In this document: one piece after another, positions 950 through 20,000 of the stretch
How the letters are laid out: every line of letters begins with the position of its first letter
How positions within the stretch are numbered: position 1 is the first letter of the stretch
Origin: a virus
Lineage: Duplodnaviria; Heunggongvirae; Uroviricota; Caudoviricetes
Length of the DNA: 25,943 nt
Virus record (IMG/VR): IMGVR_UViG_3300049596_000323
Span: 64,001 to 89,943 of that record
Direction: 5' to 3' (one strand)
Made by a program: the position numbers and the translations under genes
Notes under the pieces: model-generated
The model's database searches: none
Told to the model about the DNA's origin: nothing
The model's input: the letters and a program-made list of their open reading frames with translations, nothing else

Positions 950-984
950 TTTGTTGTTTATTTACAACAAATATACTAATTTTG
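950..984. promoter_or_regulatory. Back-to-back divergent Bacteroidota-type promoters with an 8-bp inverted repeat
   Basis: Plus: TTG (954-956)-N20-TAATTTTG (977-984). Minus: TATATTTG (975-968), with no clear -33 at canonical spacing. Inverted repeat TTTGTTGT (950-957)/ACAACAAA (964-971). Confidence 0.55.
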
Positions 985-1002
985 TTCAAAATAACCAGCA
1001 TT

Positions 1003-4000
1003 ATGCCAAATAGTTATACTTTTTACAAACCTGAGATTAAGAAATACTTTGAACATCATGTTCCTACACATAAAAAGATATTAGATGTTGGTCCTGGACA
1101 GGGTACTTATGCTAAGCTTTTAGAAGATATTGGTTATGATATAGATGCTGTTGAAGCTTGGGCCCCTTACATTGAAGAATTCAAACTGAAAGATTGGTAC
1201 GGAACAGTACACAATGCAGACATCCGTGAGTTTGACTGGTCAGAATATGACTACATCATCCTAGGAGATATACTAGAACATCTTACAGCTGAAGAAGGTC
1301 AGAAGCTTATTACAGATATAACAGATGCAGGCAAAGAATGTTTAGTGGCTGTACCATATATGATGGCTCAAGATGGTGAAGAGTATGGTAATACATACGA
1401 AACCCATCTCCAGGAAGACCTAACTCACAGGGTAATGAAGACTAGATACCCCCAGCTAGTTGAACTTTACAGTAATCATTTGTATGGGTATTATACGAAT
1501 AAGCATATAAAAGCTGAAAAAGCGTACGTTTTATATGCAAATGCATCTTATGTTCCTACCGTTAAAGCTTGTGTAGCTTCTATAAGAAGATATAGCGAGC
1601 TTCCCATCTACGTATATTTATTAGATACTATTGCAGATATTCCTGGTGCTACAACAATTATGTGGAAGTCTAATCTACCAAAGCTTTCTATCAACAAATA
1701 CATTGATAGAAGTGATAAGAATGTTTATAGACTGTTGATAGAACGTCCAATGATTGTTAAAGATGCTCTATTAAACTGTGCTCATACAGTAGCTTATATA
1801 GACTCTGATAGTGTAGCCACAGAATATGTTGATAGCATCTTTGATATGTATCCTAAAATGAACTATCCCTATTTTGTAGAGGGTATTTATGACTATCTAC
1901 ACATCAATGGTAGAGGTGGGGCTGATACTAGAGAAGATATGTCTACAACATTAGAAGCACCAGCATGTGAATTGTTTGGTGTCAATCAATATGTTAGACA
2001 GAGATATAGACAAACAGGTTATTTTGTAGCCAACCATTACTGCTTTGATTTCTTAGATGAGTGGTACTGGATGTGTACTCATCCTAAAGTGATGGCTAAC
2101 CATGAGTGGTATGCTCCATACCATGAAGAAACAATAGCTAACGTGTTATTGTGGAAGTGGGGAGTGTTAGATGGCCTACCTTACATCTACACCAATGCTA
2201 GCCTAGATAGAATAGAAGACATCTACGATAAGCTTGAGTGGGGGAAGCACCACGGAAGCTGGTCAAGATTACCAGATAATAAACATAAGTTATTATTCTT
2301 ACATGGAGAGAAAGATCCAAAGGTGATGAATAAGATGATACAAACTCTAGAGAGTGCAGAGAAACAACTAAGTGTATTGTTCTTAGCTCCTCACTTATCT
2401 ACAGGTGGTATGCCTGGTTTCCTCCTAAAAAGAGTGCAAGAACTACAACATTTCGTACGAATTTATGTAGTGGAGTACTCTGACTTCAGTCCTGTGTATG
2501 TTGTACAGAAGAATGAAATCAAAAAGCTATTGCCTGAAAACAGGATGTTTACACTAGGAGAAAACAAGATGGAGCTCATTGACATCATCAAAAAGAATAG
2601 CATTGATGTTGTACATGTAGAAGAAATGTTAGAAGGGTTTGAGAGTTTTAATCAAATAAGCCCTCAGTTATTAGATGCATTGTATGCTCCTGATAGAACC
2701 TGGAGAATAGTTGAGACATGTCATAACGTTTGGTTTAATCCTGACGAACTTAAGAAGTATGAACCAGAAGCTTATGCTTTCTGTACACCATATCATTATA
2801 AGACATTTGCTAACATGAAGGCTTATAAAGATGTAATTGAATTCCCTATAGAAGATAAGAGACCAAGTATTGTACATAAAGTGGATGCTAAAGATGAGTT
2901 AGGATTTAATCTGAACAGACCTAATGTTGTAAACGTAGGACTGTGGACTCCAGGAAAGAATCAGAAAGAAGGAATAGAGATAGCTAGAAAATATCCTAGT
3001 ATGGACTTCCATTTTGTAGGTAATCAAGCCCCCAACTTTAAAGACTACTGGGAACCGTTGATGGAAAACTTACCAAAGAATGTAAAGATATGGGGAGAGA
3101 GAAATGATGTAGATATATTCTTAAAAGCTGCAGACATATTCATGTTTAACAGCACATGGGAATGTAATCCTCTTGTACTTAGAGAAGCGATCAGCTATGC
3201 ACTTCCTGTAGTAGCTAGAAATCTTCCTCAGTATGAAGATATGTTTACTAGATACATCCTACCTATAGATAGTGATTTAGATGAAGTGAATGAAAAATAT
3301 CCTGTTGGTGTTGTTTTTCATGACATACCAGATAACAGATTTGCACAAAATCATTTACACTTGTATAACAAAACACTTGATATACCCATTGTTCCTAGAA
3401 AAAAGAAGAAAACAAAGGTGAATATATCTTTGTTATTTGTAGAGAGTCCCACCTTAGAAATTACAGGAAACAGTGATAGTAACTTCTTAATCAAATTCTT
3501 TGATGAGAAAGGGGTTTGCCATTATGAAAATACAATTACTAGCAACCGTTGGGTTAAGTTAAATAGACAATGGTTTACCAAGTGGACAGCTATGGTATGG
3601 GAAGATGGAGAACTCATCTTTGAAGAAACGTTAAACTATGAAGGTAAGCGTGTATACATCTGTATAGATAGTCAATCATTAGGTGATACTATTGCCTGGA
3701 TACCGTATTGCAATGAATTCAGAAAGAAACACAACTGTCATGTTGTAGTGAGCACATATAAGAATTTCTTGTTTGAGAAAGCGTATCCAGAGCTTGAGTT
3801 TATCACTCCAGGAAGTGTAGTGGGTAATATTCATGGTCAGTACATTGTTGGCTGGAGATACGGTAAAGATAAAGAACCTGTGTTGTGTAACACTATTCCT
3901 TTACAGAAAGCAGCTACTAACATACTAGGATTAGAATGGAAAGAGATTAGACCTAGATTTGCTTATGAACCAGTTAAATTTAGTGGTAAAGATACATTTG

Positions 4001-4479
4001 TAACTATTGCTACAAACAGTACATCAGGATGTAAGTTCTGGACCAAGCAAGGTTGGCAGGCTTTGATTAACTATCTAGTTGATCATGGATACAAGGTGTA
4101 CAATGTATCTAAAGAAAAAAATCCATTTGATAACTGTACACAGATAGAAGATACTTCTATGGATAACACTATCAATATGATCTGGAATAGTAAGTTCTTT
4201 ATAGGATTAAGCTCAGGACTGAGCTGGTTAGCTTGGATGATGGGTAAGCAAACTGTAATGATTAGTAACTTTACAGAAGCAGATCATGAGTTTCAATCTA
4301 ATTGTTTAAGAATTACAGATACAAACTTATGTCATGGTTGTTGGAACAATCCTAACTTTAAGTTTGACAAAGGTGATTGGGATTGGTGTCCTGTACATAA
4401 AGGAACTGACAGACAATTTGAATGTCATAAAGGTATATCTGCAGAAACAGTAATTAATAAAATAAAACACTTACTATGA
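1003..4479 (+). CDS. Four-domain glycan-modifying enzyme: SAM methyltransferase + GT-A-like glycosyltransferase + GT4 (GT-B) + Aah/TibC-type autotransporter O-heptosyltransferase domain
   Basis: ILDVGPGQG and LGDILEHL (class I MTase, ~1003-1490); YIDSD DxD at 1801-1809; GT4 EX7E motif ECNPLVLRE at 3160-3186; SLGDTIAWIPY (Asp 3685-3687), GLSSGLSWLAW and CHGC...WCP...QFEC four-Cys motif (4330-4425) as in TibC/Aah. ATG at 1003 preferred over TTG at 982. Confidence 0.85.
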   Translation: MPNSYTFYKPEIKKYFEHHVPTHKKILDVGPGQGTYAKLLEDIGYDIDAVEAWAPYIEEFKLKDWYGTVHNADIREFDWSEYDYIILGDILEHLTAEEGQKLITDITDAGKECLVAVPYMMAQDGEEYGNTYETHLQEDLTHRVMKTRYPQLVELYSNHLYGYYTNKHIKAEKAYVLYANASYVPTVKACVASIRRYSELPIYVYLLDTIADIPGATTIMWKSNLPKLSINKYIDRSDKNVYRLLIERPMIVKDALLNCAHTVAYIDSDSVATEYVDSIFDMYPKMNYPYFVEGIYDYLHINGRGGADTREDMSTTLEAPACELFGVNQYVRQRYRQTGYFVANHYCFDFLDEWYWMCTHPKVMANHEWYAPYHEETIANVLLWKWGVLDGLPYIYTNASLDRIEDIYDKLEWGKHHGSWSRLPDNKHKLLFLHGEKDPKVMNKMIQTLESAEKQLSVLFLAPHLSTGGMPGFLLKRVQELQHFVRIYVVEYSDFSPVYVVQKNEIKKLLPENRMFTLGENKMELIDIIKKNSIDVVHVEEMLEGFESFNQISPQLLDALYAPDRTWRIVETCHNVWFNPDELKKYEPEAYAFCTPYHYKTFANMKAYKDVIEFPIEDKRPSIVHKVDAKDELGFNLNRPNVVNVGLWTPGKNQKEGIEIARKYPSMDFHFVGNQAPNFKDYWEPLMENLPKNVKIWGERNDVDIFLKAADIFMFNSTWECNPLVLREAISYALPVVARNLPQYEDMFTRYILPIDSDLDEVNEKYPVGVVFHDIPDNRFAQNHLHLYNKTLDIPIVPRKKKKTKVNISLLFVESPTLEITGNSDSNFLIKFFDEKGVCHYENTITSNRWVKLNRQWFTKWTAMVWEDGELIFEETLNYEGKRVYICIDSQSLGDTIAWIPYCNEFRKKHNCHVVVSTYKNFLFEKAYPELEFITPGSVVGNIHGQYIVGWRYGKDKEPVLCNTIPLQKAATNILGLEWKEIRPRFAYEPVKFSGKDTFVTIATNSTSGCKFWTKQGWQALINYLVDHGYKVYNVSKEKNPFDNCTQIEDTSMDNTINMIWNSKFFIGLSSGLSWLAWMMGKQTVMISNFTEADHEFQSNCLRITDTNLCHGCWNNPNFKFDKGDWDWCPVHKGTDRQFECHKGISAETVINKIKHLL

Positions 4480-6968: not shown

Positions 6969-6974
6969 TAAAAC

Positions 6975-7005
6975 AAAAAAGCCCAGAATTAACTGGGCTT
7001 TTTTT
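6975..7005. terminator. Bidirectional rho-independent terminator
   Basis: AAAAAA-GCCCAG-AATTAA-CTGGGC-TTTTTTT between convergent genes (stops at 6968 and 7028). Confidence 0.9.
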
Positions 7006-7027
7006 ATTACTTCACCTTAAATTAATA

Positions 7028-7372
7028 TTACAATACATTAAGGTTATTGCTAACTTCTTTGAACTCCACTACAGATGTTCCTAATTTAGCTGCAACAATT
7101 TGAAACAACTCTTCATCGTTTGTACCCCAGTTAGCTACTTCTGCAGCAGTTAACACAAGTTGTGTACGTTGAGGAGCTCTCTGTAAATAATCTACATCAT
7201 TTACATTTTTGATGTTGCCATAAACAACTACAAACTCATGTTTTTCATTTCCTGGAATATAGTTTACACCAATCACTCCTAAGTGATCAAATGATGCAAC
7301 TGTTGCAGAACTGAATGGGTTCTCATCTTTTTCAGAGAAAGATGCACTTGGACTAATTTTAGCTACTAACAT
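7028..7372 (-). CDS. Hypothetical protein, probably tail-fibre associated
   Basis: Clean 114-aa ORF with A-rich leader, last gene of the minus-strand structural unit, directly after the S74-containing fibre; C-terminal WGTNDEELFQIVAAKLG. Function inferred from position only. Confidence 0.6.
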   Translation of the reverse strand: MLVAKISPSASFSEKDENPFSSATVASFDHLGVIGVNYIPGNEKHEFVVVYGNIKNVNDVDYLQRAPQRTQLVLTAAEVANWGTNDEELFQIVAAKLGTSVVEFKEVSNNLNVL

Positions 7373-7401
7373 AACTTTATTTTTTATTTTTGTTTTTTAA
7401 A

Positions 7402-10400
7402 TTATTTATTTCTTAATTCTTCTAACTGTAAAGTTAATGAATCTACACAAGATATCAAAATTTGCACACCCTTGGTTAAAATAGGTATTAGTTTTGATGA
7501 ATCAAATGAGTAGTATCCACTAAAGGTCATTTTTACTGATTCAGGTACTACGTCTTTAACTTGTTGAGCAATGAATCCTACTTGTTTTCCTTCTCCATTA
7601 GCTTTATTAGCACTATTGAATTCATAGAATGAAGGAACTAATTTGCTAACATCACAAAGCTGATATCCAACAGGTTGAATGCAACACTTTAATCTAGCAT
7701 CAGATGTATTTAAAACAATCATTCCAGTAGCATTTGCACAAATTGCACCTCCTGGATTTAAATTAGCAGCCTTGAAACAACTAGCATGATTTACAAATGA
7801 GTCTGTTGACATTATCTGACATCCACTTACAACACTTCCTATTCCCATACTCATGTTGAAACAACCACCAGTAACAGCAGAAGCTGCAGCCATTGCGTTG
7901 TTAGATTGTCCAGCAAGAATACCACTCATTTCTGAACTTACATAGTTTTGATATCCAGCAAGAATACCTGACTTCATACTACTACTAAACATATTACCTC
8001 CAGCTATAGTATTGTTACTACCACCTCCAATGAAACCCCAACCACCATAATTACAATTGGTTTGTCCACCTCCAATGAAACCATAACTAGGGAAGCTAGC
8101 ATAATATGCACTGCTAGTCGTGTTACCAGAACCTCCTACAATAACTGAACAATTACCACCTGCATTATTCATAGTACCTCCTATAATAGCAGAACTACAT
8201 GCACTAGCCATATTCATTTCACCACCACCAACAAAAGAACGGCAGCTCATAGCGTTATTATAAAAACCACTAGCAACTGCAGCACCTTCAGCAAATGCTC
8301 CATTGGATCGTCCACCACCAATAAAGGTAAAGTAAGCTGAAGCACTGTTAGAATATCCACCACTAACTGTTGAATAATCTCCATTTGCATTATTAAGCTT
8401 TCCACCACCAATAGTAGAAAACCCTGAACTTCCTGAAGCTCCAATAGTATTACAACATCCTCCACCTATTGTTCCATAACTAACGCACACTTTATTATTA
8501 ACACCACCACCAATTGTCATCCCAATATTATTAAAAGGATAACTACTAGCCGTAAAATTATTAAATCCACCTCCAATAAATGAACAAGCTGCACTATTGT
8601 TATTTGCTTCACCACCAGCAATTACTGACGAACTTCCACCTGCATTGTTAAAGAAACCACTTAACGCTCCAGAGTTAGTACCTCCTGTCGTGTTAAAGTT
8701 ACCACATCTTTCTGTAGAACCAGCTCCCATTCCTAGTACCATAATGCTTGATCCACCACCACCACCAGCAGTTAAACATAATTTACCAAAGCCATCAAAG
8801 CTTATACTACAACCCATTCCAACGTATGGAGCAAATGAAGTGATTGCTAAATCATTAACCATGTGTGTACATGCTAATGAATTCATTAAACCACATCCAG
8901 ATACAGTTGAATAGTTTGCAGTAGCAAAATTACCCTGTCCTCCAGTTATAGTTGCACCAGTTACATATCCACTAATAGTATTCATGCTTCCTCCAGATAT
9001 AGTACCACTAGTACCATTACTGCCAATGTTATTCATAAATCCTCCAGATATAACATTGTTACCTGAGTAATTACCAATATTATGAAAAGTACCACCAGCA
9101 ATTACACCATGTGTTGAACCTGTTCCAATCATGTTGATATCACCGCCTCCAATTACATTACAGCTGGCATAACTACTAACAGTGTTAGACTTACCACCAG
9201 CAATTAAATTACCAGCAGAATTAGTACAAATAATATTACATGCACCACCACTAATTGTAGAACAGTTTGTACTTGATAATATTTTGTTAAATACACCACC
9301 AGATATTGTTGAACTAGATGAACAAACACAGTTGTTATTACCACCACTAATAACTGAACAGCTTGCAGAAATTACATTGTTAAAGAAACCTCCTCCAATG
9401 AATGAATACATTCCAGAGTTACTGTTGAATCCACCACCAGTAATAACTGATCCGTTGCTAGAACTAGCATTGGTAGTACCACTTAAAGCACTAGAACAAT
9501 ATCCACTTGCTGTGTTAGAAAATCCATTACCTTGAATTGAACCAGGAGCACTACCAGCAACCATTACACCACCTCCACTTGAAGCAGTGTAAGCAATAAG
9601 CTCACCCAAAGGTCCTGCACATACAGCACATCCACCTATCATTGCATTACTTAAATTAGGTTGTACAAAGCAGTTAGCCATGAATGAACATGATAAACTG
9701 TTTGATAAACCACATCCAAATACACCAGAATATGCTCCCATTGCAGTATTACCACAACCTCCTAATACTGCTGAAAATGATCCATTAGCAGAGTTATTTT
9801 GACCACCAACTACCACACCAGATGTTCCATTAGCTCCATTAAAAGTTCCACTTCCAACAAATGAACATTGTCCAGCAGCACTATTACCAAAACCATTTCC
9901 TATAAAAGCATAATCTCCACTTGCAGTGTTAGATGCTCCATTTACAACTGTATTATATTGTGTACCTGAGGCTACGTTATTTAATCCATTACCTATAAAA
10001 TTATAATTTGCATTAGTACAGTTACCTTGTCCATTAACAATAGTTCCATGGAAGTTACCTGAAGCATGGTTTTGACAACCACCACCAATAAATGAATATG
10101 CAAAATCACCTGTGTTACCAGCACCACCTAATACAGAACTACAATTTCCTGAAGCAGTGTTTGAAGCACCACATCTAACAGATGAAGCAGTCCCTGTACC
10201 AGCAATAATAACAGCACTAGAACCAACATTCACACCACTAGATCCAGAAGATCCAGATGTACCATTAGTTCCAGGAGCTCCTGGAGATCCTGCAGCTCCT
10301 GATGTACCACTAGTACCAGTTGTACCAGCAGTTCCAGATGTACCATTAATACCACTTGATCCACTTGTTCCAGAGGTACCAGTAGTACCGCTTGTGCCAG

Positions 10401-13400
10401 TGGTACCTGATGTACCATTAATACCTGATGTACCAGCAGTGCCAGAAGAACCGCTAGTTCCTGTAGTTCCAGAAGTACCATTTGATCCATTAACACCAGA
10501 AGTGCCAGAGGTACCAGTTGTACCTGATGTACCGTTTATTCCACTAGTTCCACTTGTTCCTGTTGTGCCAGATGTACCGTTTATACCAGATGTGCCTGAG
10601 GTTCCAGTTGTTCCAGAAGTTCCTCCTGTACCATTAGTTCCAGATGTACCACCTGTACCATTAGTACCTGAAGAGCCTGAAGAGCCTGATGTTCCAGTAG
10701 TACCTGAAGTACCGCCAGTTCCATTAGTAGCTGAAGTTCCTGAAGTTGCTGACGTACCACTAGTTCCATTACTACCACTAACACCAGAAGATCCTGATGT
10801 TCCTGTGGTACCTGATGTACCACTTGTTGCACTAGTTCCACTAGTACCTGTTGTACCACTGGTTCCAGTTGTGCCACTTGTTCCACTTGTACCACCAGTT
10901 CCATTAGTACCACTAGAACCTGAAGTTCCACTTGTACCAGAGGTACCTCCAGTTCCATTAGTTCCTGAACTTCCTGATGTACCAGTGGTACCAGAAGTTG
11001 CAGATGAACCAGATGTACCAGAAGAGCCAGATGTACCTGTTGTACCAGAGCTTCCACTTGTACCAGTTGAACCTGAAGTACCAGTGGTACCGCTTGTTCC
11101 TGATGTACCAGAAGTTCCTGAAGATCCATCAGTTCCACTTGTTCCAGTGGTACCTGATGTTCCTGAAGGAGCATTGAATGTTGTTTGAGCGTATGAGTAG
11201 TTACTCGTACCCTCTGTATAAAAAGTTATATTATGATTAGCACCACCACCAGTAAATTCAACATAAATTTGACAATAAAGTCTATCTGTTGCATTTAATG
11301 TGGTTTGTGGCAAAAATAAATCTGTAAAAAATTCTTTAATAACACCATTGCTCATTGATTCTGTATCAATGTTTGTAGTTCCTAAAAGAGTAGAAACACC
11401 ACCAGTTGTATACTTGTATAATTCTACATCTACTGCAACATTTCTATTTGTATCAATTGAAAGGTGTGTTACGAAAGCCCAAAGACCTGAAGGTATATTT
11501 GTTATATTTGGTACACCACTATCAGTTGCAAAAGTTGCAATTAATGTTCTTGTGTCTGCCGCTATATTTGTAACTACAGTTTGTTCTGCACCACCTGTAG
11601 CAGTTGATGAAAATTGTTTATAAGTAGGAGTACCAAAAGCCGTATTTGTATTTAATGATTGATTTAGATAGTATACAAGTCCTCCAGATATACCATTTAT
11701 ACCTGATGTACCAGCCGTACCTGAAGTACCACTTGTTCCACTTGTTCCGCTAGATCCACTAGTTCCTGTTGTACCAGACGTACCACTAGTTCCTGTAGAA
11801 CCACTTGTACCAGTTGTTCCACTTGTACCTGAGCTTCCTGAAGTTCCAGTTGTACCGCTAGATCCTGATGTACCACTAGTTCCACCAGTTCCATTAGTTC
11901 CACTAGAACCACTTGTTCCTGTTGTACCTGAAGTGCCACCAGTTCCATTAGTTCCACTAGATCCAGAACTACCACTTGTACCAGATGATCCACTTGTACC
12001 AGTAGTTCCACTAGAGCCTGAAGTACCTGTAGATCCACTAGTTCCACTAGTTCCACCAGTACCATTAGTACCGCTAGTTCCACTAGTACCACTTGTACCA
12101 GTTGTTCCACTAGTACCACTTGTGCCATCAATAGCACTTGTACCAGAAGTTCCACTTGTACCTGAGGTACCACTTGTTCCGTCTACACCAGATGTTCCAC
12201 TTGTGCCAGACGTACCTGTTGACCCACTAGTACCACTAGTACCAGTTGTGCCAGAAGTTCCGTTAGTACCATCTATACCAGTTGTACCTGAGGTACCTGA
12301 AGTACCACCACTACCTGACGTACCAGTGGTACCAGATGTTCCACTTGTTCCATCTATTGCAGAAGTTCCTGAGGTACCAGTAGTACCAGCAGTTCCTGAA
12401 GAGCCGCTTGTTCCACTAGTTCCAGATGTACCTGTTGAACCAGATGTTCCACTAGTTGCAGAAGAACCTGAGGTTCCACTTGTTCCTGTAGTTCCACTAG
12501 ATCCACTTGTACCATCAATTCCTGATGTGCCACTTGTTCCACTTGATCCACTAGTACCACCTGTACCATTGGTAGCAGATGTTCCACTTGAACCAGATGT
12601 ACCGCTTGTACCTGTTGTGCCACTAGTTCCTGAGGTTCCAGTTGTACCAGATGTTCCATCAATAGCTGATGTTCCACTTGTACCAGCTGTTCCACTAGTT
12701 CCAGTTGTGCCACTTGTACCGCTAGTTCCATCAATTGCAGATGTACCACTAGAACCACTTGTTCCAGTCGTGCCACTTGTACCACTGGTTCCTGTTGTTC
12801 CAGCAGTTCCAGAAGAACCACTAGTCCCAGAAGATCCTGAAGTTCCAGTAGTGCCAGATGTTCCAGAAGAACCATCTCCTCCAGAAGCACCGTCTAAGTT
12901 AACTATCCAGCTTGTATATGTACCACTACCAACTGTTCTAGTTGGAGTGCCAAAAATTAATCCACCAGTAGCTGGGTTATAAGATACCACTTCACATTCT
13001 TGGAAGTTGTTTATATCATAAGCTATTACAATAGATTGAGCTACTGTATATGCAAGTTGTGTTCCTACAACAATGGCTCCATTACTACCTAATGTAAACG
13101 ATGTAGTAGAAGTTGTTGCAAATTGGTCACCTGTTTCTCCAGAAGTACCTGATGAACCAGATGTACCATTACTACCATCAGCACCACTGGTTCCACTAGT
13201 TCCACTAGTTCCAGATGTGCCATCTATTGCTGATGTTCCAGATGAGCCTGAAGACCCACTAGTTCCTGAAGTACCGTCTGTTGCACTTGTTCCACTTGAA
13301 CCTGATGTTCCACTTGTACCAGATGTACCTCCACTACCACCAGCACCATCAATACCTGAACTACCACTAGTTCCAGATGTACCAGCAGTACCTGACGTGC

Positions 13401-13647
13401 CTGAAGTACCTGCACTTCCAGATGTACCATCTTCACCAGCAGAACCAGAGGCAATTACTTCCCAAAGGTTGTAACTACCACTACCTACAGCTTTAGTTGG
13501 TGTAAAAACCAACTCTCCTGTAGCAGGATTGTAAGAAACAACCTGACCAAAAATATAGTCAGTACTATCTGCTATTAGCTGGATAAATTGTCCAGTGATA
13601 AAAGATAGACCTGTTTGAGTGGTTATTGTTATGTTAGAATAAGCCAT
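7402..13647 (-). CDS. Giant trimeric tail/virion fibre: G-T-S triplet stalks, internal beta modules, Cys-rich beta-roll head, C-terminal Peptidase_S74 intramolecular chaperone
   Basis: Three Gly-X-Y blocks; ~14-15-aa repeats of type NxASGxYSxIGGGxxN (YadA-head-like); TSDARLK...GFIAQQVKDVVPESV...KLIPILTKGVQIL is the S74 chaperone signature. Confidence 0.85.
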   Translation of the reverse strand: MAYSNITITTQTGLSFITGQFIQLIADSTDYIFGQVVSYNPATGELVFTPTKAVGSGSYNLWEVIASGSAGEDGTSGSAGTSGTSGTAGTSGTSGSSGIDGAGGSGGTSGTSGTSGSSGTSATDGTSGTSGSSGSSGTSAIDGTSGTSGTSGTSGADGSNGTSGSSGTSGETGDQFATTSTTSFTLGSNGAIVVGTQLAYTVAQSIVIAYDINNFQECEVVSYNPATGGLIFGTPTRTVGSGTYTSWIVNLDGASGGDGSSGTSGTTGTSGSSGTSGSSGTAGTTGTSGTSGTTGTSGSSGTSAIDGTSGTSGTTGTSGTAGTSGTSAIDGTSGTTGTSGTSGTTGTSGTSGSSGTSATNGTGGTSGSSGTSGTSGIDGTSGSSGTTGTSGTSGSSATSGTSGSTGTSGTSGTSGSSGTAGTTGTSGTSAIDGTSGTSGTTGTSGSGGTSGTSGTTGIDGTNGTSGTTGTSGTSGSTGTSGTSGTSGVDGTSGTSGTSGTSGTSAIDGTSGTSGTTGTSGTSGTSGTNGTGGTSGTSGSTGTSGSSGTTGTSGSSGTSGSSGSSGTNGTGGTSGTTGTSGSSGTNGTGGTSGTSGSSGTTGTSGSSGTSGTTGTSGSTGTSGTSGTTGTSGSSGTSGTSGTSGTAGTSGINGISGGLVYYLNQSLNTNTAFGTPTYKQFSSTATGGAEQTVVTNIAADTRTLIATFATDSGVPNITNIPSGLWAFVTHLSIDTNRNVAVDVELYKYTTGGVSTLLGTTNIDTESMSNGVIKEFFTDLFLPQTTLNATDRLYCQIYVEFTGGGANHNITFYTEGTSNYSYAQTTFNAPSGTSGTTGTSGTDGSSGTSGTSGTSGTTGTSGSTGTSGSSGTTGTSGSSGTSGSSATSGTTGTSGSSGTNGTGGTSGTSGTSGSSGTNGTGGTSGTSGTTGTSGTTGTSGTSATSGTSGTTGTSGSSGVSGSNGTSGTSATSGTSATNGTGGTSGTTGTSGSSGSSGTNGTGGTSGTNGTGGTSGTTGTSGTSGINGTSGTTGTSGTSGINGTSGTTGTSGTSGVNGSNGTSGTTGTSGSSGTAGTSGINGTSGTTGTSGTTGTSGTSGSSGINGTSGTAGTTGTSGTSGAAGSPGAPGTNGTSGSSGSSGVNVGSSAVIIAGTGTASSVRCGASNTASGNCSSVLGGAGNTGDFAYSFIGGGCQNHASGNFHGTIVNGQGNCTNANYNFIGNGLNNVASGTQYNTVVNGASNTASGDYAFIGNGFGNSAAGQCSFVGSGTFNGANGTSGVVVGGQNNSANGSFSAVLGGCGNTAMGAYSGVFGCGLSNSLSCSFMANCFVQPNLSNAMIGGCAVCAGPLGELIAYTASSGGGVMVAGSAPGSIQGNGFSNTASGYCSSALSGTTNASSSNGSVITGGGFNSNSGMYSFIGGGFFNNVISASCSVISGGNNNCVCSSSSTISGGVFNKILSSTNCSTISGGACNIICTNSAGNLIAGGKSNTVSSYASCNVIGGGDINMIGTGSTHGVIAGGTFHNIGNYSGNNVISGGFMNNIGSNGTSGTISGGSMNTISGYVTGATITGGQGNFATANYSTVSGCGLMNSLACTHMVNDLAITSFAPYVGMGCSISFDGFGKLCLTAGGGGGSSIMVLGMGAGSTERCGNFNTTGGTNSGALSGFFNNAGGSSSVIAGGEANNNSAACSFIGGGFNNFTASSYPFNNIGMTIGGGVNNKVCVSYGTIGGGCCNTIGASGSSGFSTIGGGKLNNANGDYSTVSGGYSNSASAYFTFIGGGRSNGAFAEGAAVASGFYNNAMSCRSFVGGGEMNMASACSSAIIGGTMNNAGGNCSVIVGGSGNTTSSAYYASFPSYGFIGGGQTNCNYGGWGFIGGGSNNTIAGGNMFSSSMKSGILAGYQNYVSSEMSGILAGQSNNAMAAASAVTGGCFNMSMGIGSVVSGCQIMSTDSFVNHASCFKAANLNPGGAICANATGMIVLNTSDARLKCCIQPVGYQLCDVSKLVPSFYEFNSANKANGEGKQVGFIAQQVKDVVPESVKMTFSGYYSFDSSKLIPILTKGVQILISCVDSLTLQLEELRNK
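10235..11170 (-). repeat. Gly-X-Y (mainly GTS/GTT/GSS/GTN) coding repeat, block 3 of fibre 1 (boundaries approximate)
   Basis: 9-nt periodic degenerate repeat; Gly (occasionally Ala) at every third residue. Confidence 0.9.
11690..12890 (-). repeat. Gly-X-Y coding repeat, block 2 of fibre 1 (~400 aa, boundaries approximate)
   Basis: Register [18 protein letters not shown] ... AID GTS is held throughout the part I checked. Confidence 0.9.
13135..13440 (-). repeat. Gly-X-Y coding repeat, block 1 of fibre 1 (boundaries approximate)
   Basis: GTS triplets between the two N-terminal beta modules. Confidence 0.9.
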
Positions 13648-13673
13648 TTATATTGATTTTATATTTTATAATT

Positions 13674-16600
13674 TTAACAAGGTACACAACTACCTGCTTG
13701 AGTTAACAATGTTGAACCACCACCTGCAGAAGTAAATGGTCTAGTATTGGTTCCATCAGAAACATAATAGGTTCCTGCACTCAATGATGTAGCATTAGCT
13801 GCATTTAAAGCACCACATCCACAAAGAGTTGCTGTACCTGTGTATGCATATGTTGGAAGGCTAGTAGCTGTACCTGCACAAGCCATTGAACTAATAGAAT
13901 CTACATATAATGTTGGAGAACTTGGAGTTGTACATGAACCACTCACTTGAACTAATCCATATATGTTTACAGCATACCAATTAGTTCCATCAGAATAATA
14001 TCCTGAACTAACTGAATTTGTAAGTGCTGTATCATAATATAAAAATGTGACAGTTGCTGTAATAGTAGTACCAAATTCATAATAAATTGGAACTAATAAT
14101 GAAGGATTATCTGCATTACCACATGCTACAATAGGCCCTACATTACTTGGATAACTAGGATCAGCAAACGCTAAATTTATAGTATTATAGACAGGTGCTG
14201 TTGTAGTTGTTGTTGTTGTAGTTATACAACTTTCTATACTTGTTATTATACCAGATTCAGCAATTCCAAATGGATCACCATCAAGACCTATATAATATGT
14301 GCCTGGAGGATTTGAAAATGTAAAAGGATCTGTTAAATATTGATCATCATACAATTGTGTTCCTACTTGAATAGGTAATGATTCTACATATAATGGAGCA
14401 AGAATACCACCACTACAAGGACTAAAAGGACCAAAAAGACTTGGGCTAACACCACTAGCCGTAACTTCAATACCATTTTGATTTAAAGGAAAAGATATTG
14501 TATTAGAACTTGTACCATATAATAATGTAGAGCTACCAGAGGTTCCTGACGTTCCACTGGTACCAGAAGTACCACTAGTTCCACTTGTGCCACTAGTGCC
14601 TGATGTACCTGAGGTTCCACTAGTACCATCTATTGCACTTGTTCCAGATGTGCCAGATGAACCAGCTGTACCACTTGAGCCTGATGTACCGTCTATACCA
14701 GACGTTCCTGTTGTTCCAGAAGACCCACTAGTACCTGATGTTCCGTCTACACCTGTAGTTCCAGATGTTCCATCAGTTCCACTTGTACCTGATGTGCCAG
14801 TAGTTCCTGAAGAACCAGAAGTTCCTGAGGTGCCACTAGTTGCTGAGGTACCACTTGTTCCTGTTGTACCACTAGTACCAGATGAACCTGAAGTGCCAGA
14901 AGTTCCGTCAATTCCAGATGTTCCATCTGTACCACTTGTACCATCAGTACCACTAGTTCCGTCAACTCCACTTGTTCCTGAAGTTCCATCTATGCCAGAA
15001 GTACCGTCAGTACCAGATGTTCCATCAGTACCTGATGTTCCGTCTGTACCAGAAGTACCACTTGAACCAGAAGTTCCTGAAGTGCCATCAATACCACTAG
15101 AGCCTGATGTACCACTTGTGCCTGAAGTACCAGTGCTTCCACTTGTACCACTTGTTCCGTTTGTACCATCAATGCCAGAAGTTCCAGAAGTTCCACTAGA
15201 ACCACTAGTTCCAGTTGTTCCACTAGATCCTGATGTACCGCTTGTTCCAGAAGTTCCAGTTGTACCTGATGAGCCATCATTACCAGAAGTACCAGATGTG
15301 CCTGTAGTTCCAGAAGTGCCAGAAGTGCCATCTATTCCAGATGTACCACTTGTACCTGAGCTACCATCACCACCTGATGCACCATCAAGGTTTACTATCC
15401 AACTTGTATATGTGCCTGAACCCACTGTTCTAAAAGGGGCACCAAAACTTAATTCACCTGTTGATGGATTATAAGCTGTAACCTCACACTCTTGGAAGTT
15501 ATTAGCGTCATAAACCACAATTATTGATTGAGCCACTGAGTATGCTAAACCTGTAGCAACTGTTAATGTACCAGAGTTACCTAATGTAAAGCTATCAGTA
15601 GATGTAGTTCTATATTTATCACCTTGTGCTCCAGAAGTACCACTTGTACCACTGGTGCCATCTATTCCAGATGACCCTGAAGTTCCTGCAGATCCTGATG
15701 TTCCATGGCTACCGTCTGTACCACTTGTTCCACTAGTTCCAGAAGTACCAGTAGTACCACTAGATCCTGATTCACCACTAGTACCACTTGTTCCAGTAGT
15801 TCCAGAAGTTCCGTTACTACCATCACTTCCTGAGGTTCCTGAACTACCACTTGTGCCTGTAGTACCACTAGTACCACTTGTTCCATCAACTCCAGAAGAC
15901 CCACTAGTTCCAGAAGATCCACTTGTTGCAGATGTACCGCTTGTACCATGTGTTCCACTGGTTCCAGATGTACCAGTCGTACCTGAAGTTCCTGATTCAC
16001 CACTAGTTCCACTAGTACCGTCAGACCCTGATGTACCAGATGTTCCATCAACACCACTTGTTCCAGTGGTACCAGATGATCCAGATGTACCTGTTGTTCC
16101 TGAAGTACCGCTTGTACCTGTAGATCCACTTGTACCTGATGTACCACTTGTTGCAGATGTTCCAGACGTACCACTTGTTCCATCTACTCCACTTGTACCA
16201 GAGGTACCATCTTCACCTGAAGATCCACTTGTTCCAGCAGTTCCACTAGTTGCAGAAGTTCCACTAGTTCCATCTACACCTGAAGTGCCACTGGTTCCTG
16301 TAGTGCCTGATGTTCCTGATGTACCATCTATACCTGAAGTACCACTGGTTCCAGAGGTTCCACTAGTTGCAGATGAACCACTAGTTCCACTTGTACCATC
16401 AGTTCCACTTGTACCATCAATACCAGATGTGCCTGAGCTTCCAGCAGTTCCTGAAGAACCTGCTGATCCATTTACACCATTTGTTCCATTAATACCTGAC
16501 GTACCAGAGGTACCACGTGTTCCTGATGTACCACTAGTACCTGTAGTTCCACTTGTTCCAGTTGTTCCACTTGATCCTGAGACACCAGAAGTACCAGAAG

Positions 16601-16949
16601 TACCACGTGTACCAGACGTACCATCTACACCACTTGTACCTGAAGTACCAGTTAAACCACTAGTACCTGATGTACCACGTGTTCCTGAGGTTCCAGAAAC
16701 CCCACTTGTACCAGAGGTTCCATTGATACCATTTGTACCATCAATACCAGAGGTTCCACTAGTACCTGAAGTACCAGCTGAACCACTACCACCTCCTCCA
16801 TTACCAATAGCTTCATCAATTTTTTGTAAAGCTGTCTGAATGGAATCATTAGTGTTGATACCTGTATAAACAAGATTAGCACCCTCGTAAAATACGCAGG
16901 TGCTGTTAAGTATGACTGGGCAAGGAGTTGCAGAACATGTAACGTTCAT
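13674..16949 (-). CDS. Second G-T-S triplet fibre protein with Cys-containing N-terminal anchor and three Cys-bracketed C-terminal modules
   Basis: N-term [19 protein letters not shown]...[12 protein letters not shown]; two Gly-X-Y blocks split by a module shared with fibre 1; C-terminal modules joined by TTTTTTT and TTPSSP linkers. Confidence 0.8.
14530..15375 (-). repeat. Gly-X-Y coding repeat, block B of fibre 2 (boundaries approximate)
   Basis: GTS/GTD/GID triplets, 9-nt degenerate periodicity. Confidence 0.9.
15620..16800 (-). repeat. Gly-X-Y coding repeat, block A of fibre 2 (boundaries approximate)
   Basis: GTS triplets with interspersed GTR, GES, GVD, GTH. Confidence 0.9.
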
Positions 16950-17089: not shown

Positions 17090-20000
17090 TTATCTTACGG
17101 TATTTTTAGGTTGAACAGTGATGTCAAATTCTTTAGCCCAGTCTTCACTAAGGACGGCTCCAAAGGTTAATACAGTTTTACCTCCTGGAACAAAACTCTT
17201 TAAGAAATCCTTAACTGGCATAGCATCTTTTCTAACCTGTTCACGAGTTCTATCCTTCTTACCTGAAATAGGCATACCTGTAATTTGTTCAGATAAATGG
17301 GTGAAGAATTTTAAAGCATCAGTAACCACAGCAATTGCTGGGAAGATACCACCTGCTGCTAAGTTTCTAATTTCATTAGGATTATAGAAGAATGTAATCT
17401 CATCTTTAATCTTATCTAGTGTTCTTAAGTAATATCTATGTCTGTTCTTAGTAGCTTTATCTTCATCATCATCTGGAGCAAACATACCTAAAGCAAACGC
17501 AGCAGCTGTTAAAGCTATTATGTAACTAATCTCCTTAAGAGAGCTTTGGACGTTTTGTCTAATCATGTCTTTGAAGTCATCTTTGTTCATGTTTAGTTTC
17601 TGTCCAGTCTTTTTATAGTATTGTTGAGTATAATACTCATATAAATCATCTAGTTTTTTAACACCAGATTCATTTACTTGTAATATATTTTTAATGTTTA
17701 ATTGTCCCTCTTTAATTGAATCATACATTAATCCAAGGAATAAATTAGCTCTACCTAAATCATATTGCTCTCCTTCTAAGGTTCCGCTACTATCAATTGT
17801 TATATCAAAGTCATCAGCTCCTAATTTATGTATACCAGAGAAACGTGTTTCAAGCAATGGATAAATCCACTTCTTAAATACCATCATGCTTTTAGTCCAA
17901 ATAGACATGTCCATCTTGGTAATACTTTCTTGTGATACGCTACCTATAGCTCTGTTGGTAGTATTCTTAGTCAATCTACTTAGTCTATCTAACTCTTTTT
18001 TGTTATTTAAATCAAGACCAGGGATAACTAACTTACCATTCTCAAGTTTCATAGTGTTTGTGATAGAACGAGTCTTCTTCAATTGTTCAATCTCAGCATC
18101 TATTTTACCTTTTGACTTTTCCCAATTTCCAGAACTATCATAACGATCATTATATTTAGCCTTAACGAACTTTCTAATGTTAACTATTTTTCCATTCTCT
18201 ATCATTGAATTGTCTAACAATGTTAAAAAGATAGACTTCTCAACCAATTGTTCTGGTTTTCTAAAAGCAATCATTAAGAAATCACCAATGTTATTTCCAT
18301 TTAAAAGCATTCCTCCTTTAACTACACTTGACTTCTTAAACTTTTCATAAGAAGGGTCTTCTTTCATTGGAACAAAAGCATTGATTAATTGAGCAAACAT
18401 TTCTCTGTCATCCTTAGACTTAAACAATCTATGTCCTAATAATATACCTTCATTCTTAAGAACCTCTCTTGCAGTGAAGTAGTTTCCAGACTGTGCAGAG
18501 ATTTGAAATTGAGAACCTAATAAGTTCACAACACCAGGTAATGGATCTAATGATAATGTCTTTAACACAAAAGCTCTGTTGGCAGCATCCATTAGTTTAA
18601 CTAATGATGTAGGTCTGTCATCTCCTTCGTTAATAGATACAATTTCTTTACCAGCAACCTTGTTAATTAGTTTCTTAATGTTAACTACAGCTTTGTTTAT
18701 ACCCACAGGAGTATCAACATCTGACATTACATACTTTTGTTCATAGAATAATGATCTTGTAAACAAGTCAAAGTCTTTAATAATGTCTTCATTACCTCTA
18801 ACCAACTTAGGTTGATTATTCTCCATGATGATATTACCAGCTCTACCTGTAGCAATGTGGTGTGTCTTGAACTCTTCTACGGTTCTTAACATACTAATCT
18901 GATCTTCAATCTCAGTTAAATACTTATACTTCTCAACCTCTTGCGTATACAAGATTAAGTTAGCAAACAAATCAAAGCTTACATCAGAGTAATCATTAGG
19001 ACCATCTGCTTTTCTAGTAAAGTCGTATGTATAGTATTTAGGAATAGCGTTCACTAGTTTACCAGTGATTTCATCAAACTTACCATACCCTACATCATCT
19101 GGATTCATTTGAAGACTGTTGTAGAAATTTTGAACAGGGGCAAATACATTACCCTCAATCACCTTTTCAGCAACTGACTTTCTTACAAATGGTAAGAAGC
19201 TATCCATTATTCTCTTCTCAATAAATCCTACAGCCCCTGCTTCTTGGTTTAATTGTTCTACATATTCATATAGTTCTTTTAATTCTGGGTCAGCTAGGAC
19301 AGCTTTATATTCTTGTGAGTACCATTTAGCTTGAGGATACTTCTGTAACAAATAGTTTTGTTTCCAACCATTGAACTCAGGATTATCTACATCCCAAATA
19401 CGCTCAACTCTTAAAATAGCATTCTCTTTTTTCTCTTCATCATTTTTATAAAAGTTCTCAATACGAGCAATCTTTCTATTTAAAATTGGTTCAGATTCTT
19501 TTCTAACTCTATCAAGATCAATGTTTTCTTCTAACCATTTTTTGTTTTCAGAAGCAGCATTATCTCTAAATGCTTCTCTAAATGCAGGGTCATACTTATT
19601 AACTAACTTGTTAACTGTATCACCTTTTTGATCTTTCTTAAATATCTTTTTTATAATTTGCTCTGTATCACCTCTAGCTACCAGTCTTTTTCTAATGTTC
19701 ATCAACTTATCAACCCCTGCTTCAGCAGCAGCTTTAGCAGCTGTTCTAGCAGTTGTATTAAGTTTAGCCATAATGTTAATTGATCTAACACCAAAATTTA
19801 CAGCTTCTTTAAATCCTGCAGCAAGTCCTTTAGGAATAGCTTCTGGTTCAGTTAACCCAAGCACTAAGTTTCTTTCTCCAATATGCTTATCAGCAAACTC
19901 TAATATAATCTTCTTAATTTCAGTTTTAGCTAAATAGATTTCACCAGATTGTTTAGTTAAGTCAGACAATACATCTCTTAACTCTTGAAGATATGCTTGT

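What the first reader, a model, noticed from the sequence alone, without database searches (positions are those of the whole stretch)
7402..16949. Proline-free Gly-Thr-Ser collagen-like stalks that may need glycosylation to fold
Seen: strict three-residue register with Gly (sometimes Ala) first and nearly all X/Y being Thr/Ser, in five blocks of roughly 100-400 aa. The S74 chaperone indicates a trimer. Established: glycosylated Thr in the Y position stabilises collagen triple helices (vent-worm cuticle collagen peptides), and BclA collagen-like repeats are O-glycosylated. Inference: a sugar-stabilised triple helix. At about 0.29 nm per residue, fibre 1 stalks would total roughly 230 nm. The Gly-to-Ala swaps argue for caution: a polyglycine-II bundle or disordered mucin-like tether is also possible.
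Basis: partly seen in the sequence, partly recalled or inferred. Interest (0 to 1): 0.75.

Follow-up and report, generated by a model that had tools for sequence, protein, structure and literature searches.

The report
Sugar-linked proline-free collagen-like phage fibres
Two tail-fibre genes of an uncultured crAss-related phage encode very long collagen-like stalks made almost only of Gly-Thr-Ser, and gene comparisons across many phages tie these stalks to a TibC-type enzyme that puts sugar on serine, so the stalks are probably a sugar-coated kind of collagen that has never been tested at the bench.

Summary
Observation confirmed. Two adjacent minus-strand genes (2081 and 1091 aa) hold five uninterrupted Gly-X-Y blocks of 108, 405, 315, 393 and 285 aa. 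That is 502 triplets, 51% of them exactly GTS. X is Thr in 72%, Y is Ser in 66%. There are 3 Pro, no Lys-Gly-Glu/Asp clamps, and Ala replaces Gly in 3.8%.

They are fibre stalks of a ~110-kb crAss-related phage. A conserved 77-aa knob punctuates them, and fibre 1 ends in a Gly/Ser/Asn repeat region plus an S74 chaperone.

The glycosylation idea gains strong comparative support:
- The last domain of the neighbouring 1165-aa enzyme is a TibC/Aah-type protein O-glycosyltransferase (BAHT), which is Ser-specific in E. coli.
- Among 16 near-complete relatives it is present in all 12 with GTS stalks and absent from all 4 without (two independent changes).
- 32 of 38 distinct phage BAHT loci have a GTS gene tail-to-tail within a few kb.
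- 27 of 72 GTS-pattern viral records carry it, against 4 of 50,697 GenBank phages.

The sulfotransferase does not track the stalks. Whether sugar is needed for folding is untested. The likely acceptor is Ser in Y, not Thr.

The scan has reported this enzyme-fibre pairing before, on this genome and at least 45 others.

The parts
7402..13647 (-). Fibre gene 1 (P0001, 2081 aa). Order: knob-like N-terminus, GTS block, knob, GTS block, 168-aa beta-rich domain, GTS block, Gly/Ser/Asn repeat region, S74 chaperone.
   Evidence: ORF and translation; Pfam Collagen and Peptidase_S74; PHROG tail-fibre hits on the C-terminal part.
13447..13647 (-). P0001 aa 1-67: N-terminal paralogue of the knob domain. 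It has no Cys-rich adaptor.
   Evidence: BLASTP against the internal knob: 47% identity, E 1e-14.
13123..13446 (-). GTS block 1 of fibre 1 (aa 68-175, 36 triplets).
   Evidence: Period-3 scan.
12892..13122 (-). Knob domain (aa 176-252): a conserved 77-aa module always flanked by GTS repeats. Proposed trimer and register node.
   Evidence: Found 1-4 times per fibre in dozens of viral loci at 37-97% identity, 20 invariant columns. No Pfam or PHROG family.
11677..12891 (-). GTS block 2 of fibre 1 (aa 253-657, 135 triplets).
11173..11676 (-). Mid domain (aa 658-825), beta-rich, no known family.
   Evidence: AF2 single-sequence model is all-beta but poor, pLDDT 53.7. Homologues at the same place in relatives.
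10228..11172 (-). GTS block 3 of fibre 1 (aa 826-1140, 105 triplets). It ends with the only Pro-containing triplets.
7705..10227 (-). Gly/Ser/Asn-rich repeat region (aa 1141-1981), probably a beta-solenoid shaft or receptor-binding part.
   Evidence: Sequence. Homologues in nearly all relatives, including a relative without BAHT and without GTS blocks.
7405..7704 (-). C-terminal intramolecular chaperone (Peptidase_S74) with an S-D-x-x-x-K motif.
   Evidence: Pfam PF13884, E 1e-9, aa 1982-2039; motif read.
13674..16949 (-). Fibre gene 2 (P0002, 1091 aa). Order: Cys-rich adaptor, GTS block, knob, GTS block, variable 284-aa tip with a poly-Thr linker.
   Evidence: The adaptor is shared with the third fibre P0003. 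The tip is poorly conserved even in the closest relatives.
15615..16793 (-). GTS block 1 of fibre 2 (aa 53-445, 131 triplets).
15384..15614 (-). Knob domain of fibre 2 (aa 446-522).
14529..15383 (-). GTS block 2 of fibre 2 (aa 523-807, 95 triplets).
   Evidence: Purifying selection in the orthologue comparison.
982..4479 (+). 1165-aa multi-enzyme protein (methyltransferase, glycosyltransferase folds, BAHT domain), convergent with the fibre genes.
   Evidence: Pfam and NCBIfam.
3481..4470 (+). TibC/Aah-type protein O-glycosyltransferase (BAHT) domain, the proposed modifier of the GTS stalks.
   Evidence: TIGR04414, 246 bits (cut-off 200). PDB TibC 4RAP, E 2e-45. Catalytic Asp, Thr, Lys, Trp and the four iron-binding Cys are invariant in 58 phage homologues.

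Best explanation
The five blocks are the shafts of two trimeric tail fibres.

Fold: each block most likely forms a collagen-like triple helix with Gly inside, Thr in X and Ser in Y. It has none of the usual stabilisers: no proline and no Lys-Glu/Asp clamps.

Folding: it is probably started by the trimeric non-collagen parts. These are the S74-chaperoned C-terminal region in fibre 1 and the recurrent knob domains. The helix would then zip from C to N.

Modification: the Y-position serines (177 in fibre 1 and 156 in fibre 2, per chain) are O-glycosylated in the cytoplasm by the phage's TibC/Aah-type domain. The other transferase and methyltransferase domains of the same protein may extend the glycan.

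Role of the sugar: the sugar sheath is an integral part of the stalk. It supplies stability and stiffness that the bare sequence lacks, and protection.

What is shown: the sequence pattern, selection on it, the identity of the enzyme family, and its tight co-occurrence and adjacency with GTS genes.

What is inferred: the triple helix, the sugar on Ser, and the dependence of the stalk on the sugar.

My sub-odds: triple helix about 0.65; glycosylated by the BAHT domain about 0.75; helix stability actually dependent on the sugar about 0.5 given both.
For: 1. Strict Gly period over up to 135 triplets, far beyond chance. Pfam Collagen E 1e-87.
2. Purifying selection on the pattern with a fixed X=Thr/Y=Ser asymmetry. 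A disordered Ser/Thr linker would not need this.
3. Trimer context: an S74 chaperone on fibre 1 and on the third fibre, and a conserved knob between blocks.
4. No known stabiliser: 3 Pro, no KGE/KGD. By contrast, viral collagens are rich in KGD, and Ac-(Gly-Pro-Thr)10 is unfolded unless its Thr is galactosylated (PMC11923368).
5. The neighbouring enzyme is a true BAHT with an intact catalytic and iron-finger set. TibC glycosylates Ser, not Thr, at N-S-G and T-S-A sites (PMC4358343). These resemble the T-S-G and T-S-A of the blocks.
6. Co-variation in 16 relatives at least 90% complete. BAHT-positive (12) have 3-37 Pfam Collagen matches. BAHT-negative (4) have 0-2, and those lie in a short Pro-containing ORF. 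The portal tree shows two separate lineages for the joint absence. Relatives without BAHT still have homologous adaptors or the repeat region, but no GXY block.
7. Adjacency: 32 of 38 BAHT clusters with at least 3 kb of flank have a GTS ORF convergent within about 0-6 kb. This includes phages that lack this clade's portal: 66-kb, 299-kb and 321-kb complete genomes.
8. The reverse test: 27 of 72 viral records found by a (G[ST][ST])x10 DNA pattern carry BAHT, including all 6 complete ones with true blocks. Only 4 of 50,697 GenBank phage records do.
9. Known glycosylated collagens carry their sugar in Y (established knowledge; PMC11923368, PMC8968730).
Against: - No structure, circular dichroism or mass spectrometry exists for any GTS block.
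- Ala replaces Gly in 3.8% of triplets here and up to 14% in relatives. This locally loosens a collagen helix.
- Thr in X and Ser in Y are poor triple-helix formers in host-guest peptide scales (from memory: Persikov et al. 2000).
- For TibA, sugar raises stability but is reported not to alter the final conformation (PMC3835316), so dependence of folding on sugar is not a family rule.
- The Arg that binds heptose in TibC (Arg-286) is Thr in 57 of 58 phage homologues, so the donor sugar is unknown.
- One 84%-complete record with a 261-aa GTS block shows no BAHT or GT9 gene.
- Lake phages work at low temperature, where even a weak helix might hold without sugar.
Confidence: 0.4

Rival explanations
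1. The stalks are glycosylated triple helices, but the sugar is not needed for folding or thermal stability. The helix is held by its length, its trimeric nodes and a Ser/Thr hydration network. The glycan has a surface role: shielding from proteases, masking, or sticking to host polysaccharide.
For: - TibA reaches its final conformation without sugar (PMC3835316).
- Thr/Gln-rich bacterial collagens are thought to rely on hydration networks (PMC8968730).
- The blocks are very long and clamped by knobs and a C-terminal trimer.
- The phages come from cold waters, so little thermal stability is needed.
Against: - There is perfect co-occurrence of BAHT and GTS stalks in complete genomes. A merely useful coat should sometimes be lost.
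- Even the Pro-containing (Gly-Pro-Thr)10 does not fold without sugar (PMC11923368).
Confidence: 0.25
2. The blocks are not triple helices. They are extended, heavily glycosylated mucin-like (polyproline-II-like) bottle-brush tethers. Three chains are joined only at the knob, mid and C-terminal domains.
For: - No Pro and no charge pairs.
- Ala at Gly positions reaches 14% in relatives.
- Dense O-glycosylation alone can stiffen Ser/Thr-rich chains. Lubricin's mucin domain is reported to have strong polyproline-II character (title of 10.1101/2025.06.15.659778, listed).
Against: - A mucin-like tether needs neither Gly at every third residue for 135 triplets nor a fixed Thr-X/Ser-Y order, yet both are conserved under purifying selection across unrelated phages.
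- The only non-synonymous change at position 1 in the orthologue comparisons was a single one out of 14.
Confidence: 0.2
3. The BAHT domain acts on something else, such as the Gly/Ser/Asn repeat region of the fibre, another virion protein or a host protein. The GTS blocks stay unmodified.
For: - The natural BAHT substrates are beta-helical repeats with Ser in short loops (PMC4358343).
- The fibre's C-terminal region has many N-x-A-S-G motifs.
- The enzyme cluster always lies next to a fibre with that region.
Against: - A relative keeps a fibre of at least 2334 aa with that repeat region but has neither BAHT nor any GXY block.
- BAHT tracks the GTS blocks in the clade and in unrelated phages whose fibres differ otherwise.
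Confidence: 0.1
4. The blocks fold into polyglycine-II-type bundles (snow-flea antifreeze or phage gp38-like sandwiches), not a three-chain supercoil.
Against: Such bundles need a turn every 10-13 residues or so. Here the blocks run up to 405 residues without interruption, and the non-Ser/Thr triplets are irregularly spaced, with gaps of 1 to 48 triplets.
Confidence: 0.03

Closest known systems
BclA of Bacillus anthracis/cereus exosporium (glycosylated collagen-like filament)
   Same: A microbial Gly-X-Y filament without hydroxyproline, rich in hydroxy amino acids and O-glycosylated. It is trimerised by a C-terminal domain, and repeat number varies between strains (PMC8968730, PMC11923368).
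   Different: BclA is mostly Gly-Pro-Thr: Pro in X, with Thr in Y as the acceptor. Here there is no Pro, Thr is in X and Ser in Y, and the linked enzyme belongs to a different family (BAHT). The blocks are up to several times longer.
Riftia pachyptila cuticle collagen and the Ac-(Gly-Pro-Thr(beta-Gal))10 model peptide
   Same: This is the precedent that a sugar on a Y-position hydroxy amino acid can replace hydroxyproline as the helix stabiliser (PMC11923368 and its refs 28, 103).
   Different: The acceptor there is Thr, with Pro in X. Nothing shows that a sugar on Ser, or on a Pro-free chain, does the same.
Bucl3 and related Burkholderia collagen-like proteins
   Same: Proline-free collagen-like regions dominated by GTS and GSS triplets, 38-63 repeats, variable in number (PMC4565658). 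The GTS sequence class has therefore been described.
   Different: These are bacterial surface proteins with other flanking domains and far fewer repeats. No link to a glycosyltransferase is reported there, and no biophysics either.
TibC-TibA and Aah-AIDA-I of E. coli (bacterial autotransporter heptosyltransferases)
   Same: The enzyme domain is a scored member of this family, with the catalytic Asp and iron finger conserved. The enzyme and its hyper-glycosylated Ser-rich repetitive substrate are encoded together. Sugar raises substrate stability (PMC4358343, PMC3835316).
   Different: The substrate here would be a Gly-X-Y repeat, not a 19-residue beta-helix repeat. The heptose-binding Arg-286 is Thr in the phage branch. 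The enzyme is fused to other transferases. The setting is a phage virion, not a secreted adhesin.
Phage fibres and spikes with a C-terminal Peptidase_S74 intramolecular chaperone (K1F endosialidase type), and collagen-like phage tail fibres in general
   Same: A trimeric fibre with an S74 domain bearing the S-D-x-x-x-K motif. Collagen-like segments are common in phage tail fibres (PHROG tail-fibre families hit by the third fibre; PMC3368898).
   Different: The usual phage collagen segments are short and contain Pro and charged residues. Here the stalks total 828 and 678 residues of nearly pure Gly-Thr-Ser.

Membership tests
Collagen-like proteins (Pfam PF01391, collagen triple-helix repeat) | Uninterrupted Gly-X-Y repeats (at least 6 triplets) scoring above the Pfam threshold | tested here: met
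   Five blocks of 36-135 triplets. Pfam E 9e-87 and 1e-88 against a cut-off of 27.2 bits.
Collagen-like proteins (Pfam PF01391, collagen triple-helix repeat) | Sequence stabilisers seen in bacterial and viral collagens shown to fold: Pro in X (19-31%) and/or Lys-Gly-Glu/Asp salt-bridge triplets | tested here: not met
   3 Pro in 1004 X/Y positions, 1 Lys, no KGE or KGD. Reference values come from PMC8968730 and PMC11923368.
Collagen-like proteins (Pfam PF01391, collagen triple-helix repeat) | Adjacent trimerisation domain | tested here: met
   An S74 chaperone on fibre 1 and on the third fibre. A recurrent knob lies between blocks, but its trimer state is not shown. Fibre 2 has no recognised trimer domain.
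Collagen-like proteins (Pfam PF01391, collagen triple-helix repeat) | Triple-helical conformation (CD maximum near 225 nm, cooperative melting, rods in EM) | not testable with these tools
Glycosylated collagens of the BclA/Riftia type | Thr in the Y position as sugar acceptor | tested here: not met
   Y is Ser in 66% and Thr in 11%. Thr is in X in 72%.
Glycosylated collagens of the BclA/Riftia type | Sugar demonstrated on the collagen-like region | not testable with these tools
   Only gene linkage to a protein glycosyltransferase is available.
BAHT enzymes (TIGR04414, Aah/TibC) - for the neighbouring enzyme domain | Score above the curated cut-off; catalytic Asp-110, Thr-226, Lys-230, Trp-305 and the four iron-finger Cys | tested here: met
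   246 bits against a cut-off of 200. 4RAP E 2e-45. All these residues are invariant in 58 phage homologues.
BAHT enzymes (TIGR04414, Aah/TibC) - for the neighbouring enzyme domain | Heptose-binding Arg-286 | tested here: not met
   It is Thr in the window and in 57 of 58 phage homologues. The donor sugar may differ.
BAHT substrates (AIDA-I/TibA-type passengers) | Beta-helix of about 19-residue repeats with acceptor Ser in a short loop between strands | tested here: not met
   The GTS blocks have a 3-residue period. They share with TibA only the Ser acceptor and its local context, T/N-S-G/A (PMC4358343).
BAHT substrates (AIDA-I/TibA-type passengers) | Encoded next to its cognate BAHT gene | tested here: met
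   Here the genes are convergent, 2.9 kb apart. 32 of 38 phage BAHT clusters have a GTS ORF within a few kb.
Peptidase_S74 intramolecular-chaperone fibres | C-terminal S74 domain above threshold with the Ser-Lys (S-D-x-x-x-K) motif | tested here: met
   PF13884, 39 bits against a cut-off of 22. The motif is read. The dyad spacing is recalled from memory of the endosialidase work.
Polyglycine-II bundle proteins (snow-flea antifreeze type) | Short PGII strands (about 10-13 residues) joined by regular turns | tested here: not met
   Blocks run up to 405 residues uninterrupted. Non-Ser/Thr triplets are irregularly spaced.
Burkholderia Bucl3-type GTS collagen-like proteins | Collagen-like region dominated by GTS/GSS triplets | tested here: met
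   GTS 51% and GSS 12% of triplets, compared with PMC4565658. This is a shared sequence class only. Homology of the flanking domains was not tested.

The most novel reading that the evidence does not exclude
These stalks represent a separate kind of collagen: a proline-free, charge-free triple helix that exists only as a glycoprotein. Its stability comes wholly from sugars put on the Y-position serines by a ring-shaped TibC-type enzyme. The enzyme and its Gly-Thr/Ser-Ser substrate travel together as a two-gene module between unrelated phages, from 66 kb to over 500 kb. Unglycosylated chains would stay unfolded.
Probability: 0.25. Interest if true: 0.85.

Novelty: new variant of a known kind. 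Interest (0 to 1): 0.7.

Why it matters
If the stalks are sugar-dependent triple helices, they add a third way of stabilising collagen, beside hydroxyproline and salt bridges. The acceptor would be serine and the enzyme family one known so far only from E. coli adhesins.

This would be directly usable. E. coli makes ADP-heptose, so co-expressing a GTS block with the phage enzyme could give a designable glyco-collagen without prolyl hydroxylase.

For phage biology, it would mean that a large and widespread group of aquatic phages carries glycosylated fibres that could reach about 200 nm or more. This bears on host finding, protection from proteases and host range.

There is also a practical annotation point. 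GTS repeats leave long open frames on both strands. In the one cultured phage with this pair (Microcystis phage Mel-JY01), the collagen-like frame is annotated on the opposite strand.

Tried and rejected
1. Trimer prediction of P0001 aa 100-300 (GTS-knob-GTS, 3 copies, alignment A1). I did not try to fold that chain by any other tool.
2. AF2 of the mid domain from a single sequence gave pLDDT 53.7. That is too poor for a fold search, so none was run.
3. The ESM Atlas look-alike search for the fibre-2 tip scored 0.81 or less, which is uninformative. A second call failed on a length limit.
4. Megablast of the downstream 8.7 kb against GenBank phages found no match.
5. PHROGs and Pfam found no family for the knob, the mid domain, the adaptor or the fibre-2 tip.
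6. A literature search for a phage BAHT or a heptosylated collagen-like protein found nothing relevant. Nothing was found on Mel-JY01 either.
7. The BAHT query in bacterial genome contigs returned only two close relatives, on short MAG contigs. I did not test the bacterial distribution.
8. I first thought the sulfotransferase/PAPS-like cassette might act on the stalks. I rejected it as a stalk-specific partner, because its distribution is independent of GTS blocks.
9. I considered the beta-solenoid-like C-terminal region as the BAHT target. I rejected it as the main target because a relative keeps that region without BAHT.
10. A search for a GT9-like gene in GTS-bearing records without BAHT found none, but those records are incomplete.

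Full report
**What is there.** The window is the last 25.9 kb of an 89.9-kb IMG/VR virus record, 78% complete. Its portal and major head protein place it among distant crAss-like phages of Bacteroidota, at 25-29% identity to crAss, Flavobacterium and Cellulophaga phage portals. Complete relatives are about 110-118 kb. The finding covers two adjacent minus-strand genes, 7402-13647 (2081 aa) and 13674-16949 (1091 aa).

A period-3 scan finds five blocks of 108, 405, 315, 393 and 285 residues.
- Of 502 triplets, 256 are GTS, 58 GSS and 48 GTT.
- Position 1 is Gly 483 and Ala 19.
- X is Thr 72%, Ser 16% and Ile/Val 8%. Y is Ser 66%, Thr 11%, Asp 9% and Asn 6%.
- There are 3 Pro, 1 Lys and no KGE/KGD.
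- Runs of 135 and 131 triplets compare with at most 10 in shuffled proteins.
- Pfam Collagen scores E 1e-87. An S74 chaperone closes fibre 1.
- At 0.286 nm per residue the stalks would measure 237 and 194 nm.
- A third fibre of the same kind (620 aa, S74-like end) lies outside the window at 5757-7619 of the record.

**The pattern is selected, not a slippage artefact.** GTS is written with 36 different 9-mers and both serine codon families. Between orthologues, one 285-codon block shows 64 synonymous and 14 non-synonymous codon differences, only one of them at the Gly position. Thr in X with Ser in Y recurs in every related gene in dozens of viral contigs. Block lengths differ by whole triplets between the closest relatives: 405, 360 and 399; 315, 273 and 318.

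**Architecture.**
- Fibre 1 runs knob-like N-terminus, GTS, knob, GTS, 168-aa beta-rich domain, GTS, about 840 aa of Gly/Ser/Asn repeats, then S74.
- Fibre 2 runs Cys-rich adaptor (shared with the third fibre), GTS, knob, GTS, then a variable tip.
- The 77-aa knob recurs one to four times per fibre, always between GTS blocks, and has no known family.
- Fibre 1 starts with a knob paralogue. In several relatives one ORF carries the adaptor, GTS, knob, repeat region and S74 together.
- Collagen helices nucleate at the C-terminus and zip towards the N-terminus (PMC11923368). I therefore infer that the S74-chaperoned end and the knobs act as nucleation and register nodes.

**The stalks lack both known stabilisers.** Bacterial collagens have 19-31% Pro in X and Thr mainly in Y (PMC8968730). 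Viral ones are rich in KGD clamps, and Ac-(Gly-Pro-Thr)10 is a random coil unless its Thr is galactosylated (PMC11923368). The blocks here have neither Pro nor clamps. GTS/GSS collagen-like regions as such have been described in Burkholderia Bucl3, without biophysics (PMC4565658).

**The enzyme next door.** The neighbouring plus-strand operon, convergent with the fibre genes, encodes five proteins:
- a 1165-aa multi-enzyme protein;
- an APS-kinase-like protein;
- a small HxGH nucleotidyltransferase;
- a 288-aa unknown protein;
- a sulfotransferase.

Residues 834-1163 score 246 bits on TIGR04414 (cut-off 200) and E 2e-45 on TibC 4RAP. The catalytic Asp-110, Thr-226, Lys-230, Trp-305 and the four iron-finger Cys are invariant in 58 phage homologues. 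The heptose-binding Arg-286 is Thr in 57 of them. TibC heptosylates Ser and not Thr, at N-S-G and T-S-A sites (PMC4358343). The blocks offer hundreds of T-S-G and some T-S-A sites, all in Y, the position that carries sugar in every known glycosylated collagen.

**Comparative tests.**
1. Portal-defined relatives. Among 16 records at least 90% complete, the 12 with BAHT have 3-37 Pfam Collagen matches. The 4 without have 0-2, and those lie in a short Pro-containing ORF that is not GTS-type. On a portal tree the joint absence falls in two separate lineages. Relatives without BAHT still have the adaptor or the Gly/Ser/Asn repeat fibre (at least 2334 aa), but no GXY block.
2. Starting from BAHT. 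The search gave 80 viral loci in 47 clusters at 90% identity. Of 38 clusters with at least 3 kb of downstream flank, 32 have a GTS-type ORF on the opposite strand, usually within 0-3 kb. In the window's own lineage the PAPS/sulfotransferase genes sit between the two.
3. Independence from the clade. BAHT plus GTS also occurs in complete phages without this portal (66 kb, 170 kb, 299 kb and 321 kb). The two genes are 3-5 kb apart, or adjacent across the record ends, in three of them. The pair also occurs in the cultured Microcystis phage Mel-JY01.
4. Starting from the fibre. 27 of the 72 records searched carry BAHT although most are small fragments, and all six complete ones with true blocks do. 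In GenBank phages BAHT occurs in 4 of 50,697 records.
5. The sulfotransferase does not track. One BAHT-negative, GTS-negative relative has it, and four BAHT-positive, GTS-positive relatives lack it.

**Reading.** The stalk and the BAHT-type enzyme behave as a functional pair, so glycosylation of the stalk is the best-supported inference (about 0.75). A collagen-like triple helix is the most economical fold for a strictly periodic, selected, trimer-anchored Gly-X-Y array (about 0.65). It remains unproven, and Ala at Gly positions (3.8% here, up to 14% in relatives) argues for caution. Whether sugar is required for folding is open. In favour are the absence of other stabilisers and the unbroken co-occurrence in complete genomes. 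Against is that TibA, the family's prototype substrate, is merely less stable without sugar (PMC3835316). One 84%-complete record has a GTS block and no BAHT.

**Limits.**
- No trimer model could be obtained.
- Collagen match counts are a proxy for stalk content.
- Most metagenomic records are fragments.
- The two independent changes in the clade are few. The cross-lineage adjacency carries most of the weight.

**Standing in the scan.** The enzyme-fibre pairing has been noted repeatedly by this scan, on this genome and on at least 45 others. I found no paper describing it.

Noticed in passing
window 4476-6968 (+): An APS-kinase-like P-loop protein (145 aa), a 128-aa HxGH nucleotidyltransferase, a 288-aa unknown (phrog_8954) and a sulfotransferase form a conserved block next to the fibre genes in 43 related loci. 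The block occurs with or without BAHT and GTS stalks, so its target is unknown. It may be a PAPS supply plus a sulfation step.
   Followed up: partly
window 3481-4470 (+) and loci L136-L215: The residue matching TibC Arg-286 (heptose binding) is Thr in 57 of 58 distinct phage BAHT sequences, while all other catalytic and iron-finger residues are invariant. The stereo-selectivity position is Ser, as in Aah. The donor sugar of the phage branch may not be ADP-heptose.
   Followed up: partly
L343 (PP395634.1, Microcystis phage Mel-JY01) 2-3052 (+) and 4750-8430 (+): This cultured cyanophage has a 1016-aa open frame with 612 aa of G[TS]S repeats, 1.7 kb upstream of a 1226-aa 'methyltransferase FkbM' CDS that ends in a BAHT domain. 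GenBank annotates most of the collagen-like stretch as CDSs on the opposite strand. It is a possible bench system.
   Followed up: partly
G000:C1:5757-7619 (-), outside the window (locus L009): A third GTS fibre (620 aa; blocks of 180 and 81 aa, followed by further Gly/Ser/Thr-rich irregular repeats). It shares the Cys-rich adaptor with fibre 2 and has an S74-like end. It lies in the main structural module.
   Followed up: partly
window 17090-22189 (-) and 22191-25820 (-): Two very large ORFs (1699 and 1209 aa) have no Pfam family. The first is conserved directly upstream of the fibre genes in relatives at 27-48% identity. They are probably tail or virion proteins of the crAss-like type.
   Followed up: no
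window 13447-13647 (-): Fibre 1 begins with a knob paralogue and lacks the adaptor carried by fibres 2 and 3. In relatives, the adaptor, stalk, repeat region and S74 are in one ORF. How fibre 1 docks (on fibre 2's tip or elsewhere) is unexplained.
   Followed up: no
window 8597-16839 (+): Long plus-strand ORFs (up to 394 aa) run antisense to the GTS blocks. They are by-products of the repeat's codon pattern and an annotation trap.
   Followed up: partly
L179, L181, L182, L184 (about 11040-13109, -): In one group of phages the gene right next to BAHT is a second collagen class (X = Ala/Pro, Y = Thr/Gln, 260-490 aa), followed by the GTS gene. Two collagen types sit beside one enzyme.
   Followed up: no
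L206-L211: A distant BAHT branch (36% identity) in viral contigs has no GTS ORF within the available flanks. Its substrate is unknown.
   Followed up: no
L346, L347: Close BAHT relatives (61-66% identity) lie on short contigs binned into Sediminibacterium and Lutibacter MAGs. This is a weak hint that the hosts are Bacteroidota.
   Followed up: no
window 575-943 (-): A DUF6165 gene marks the far end of the enzyme cluster and is conserved there in relatives at 48-99% identity.
   Followed up: no
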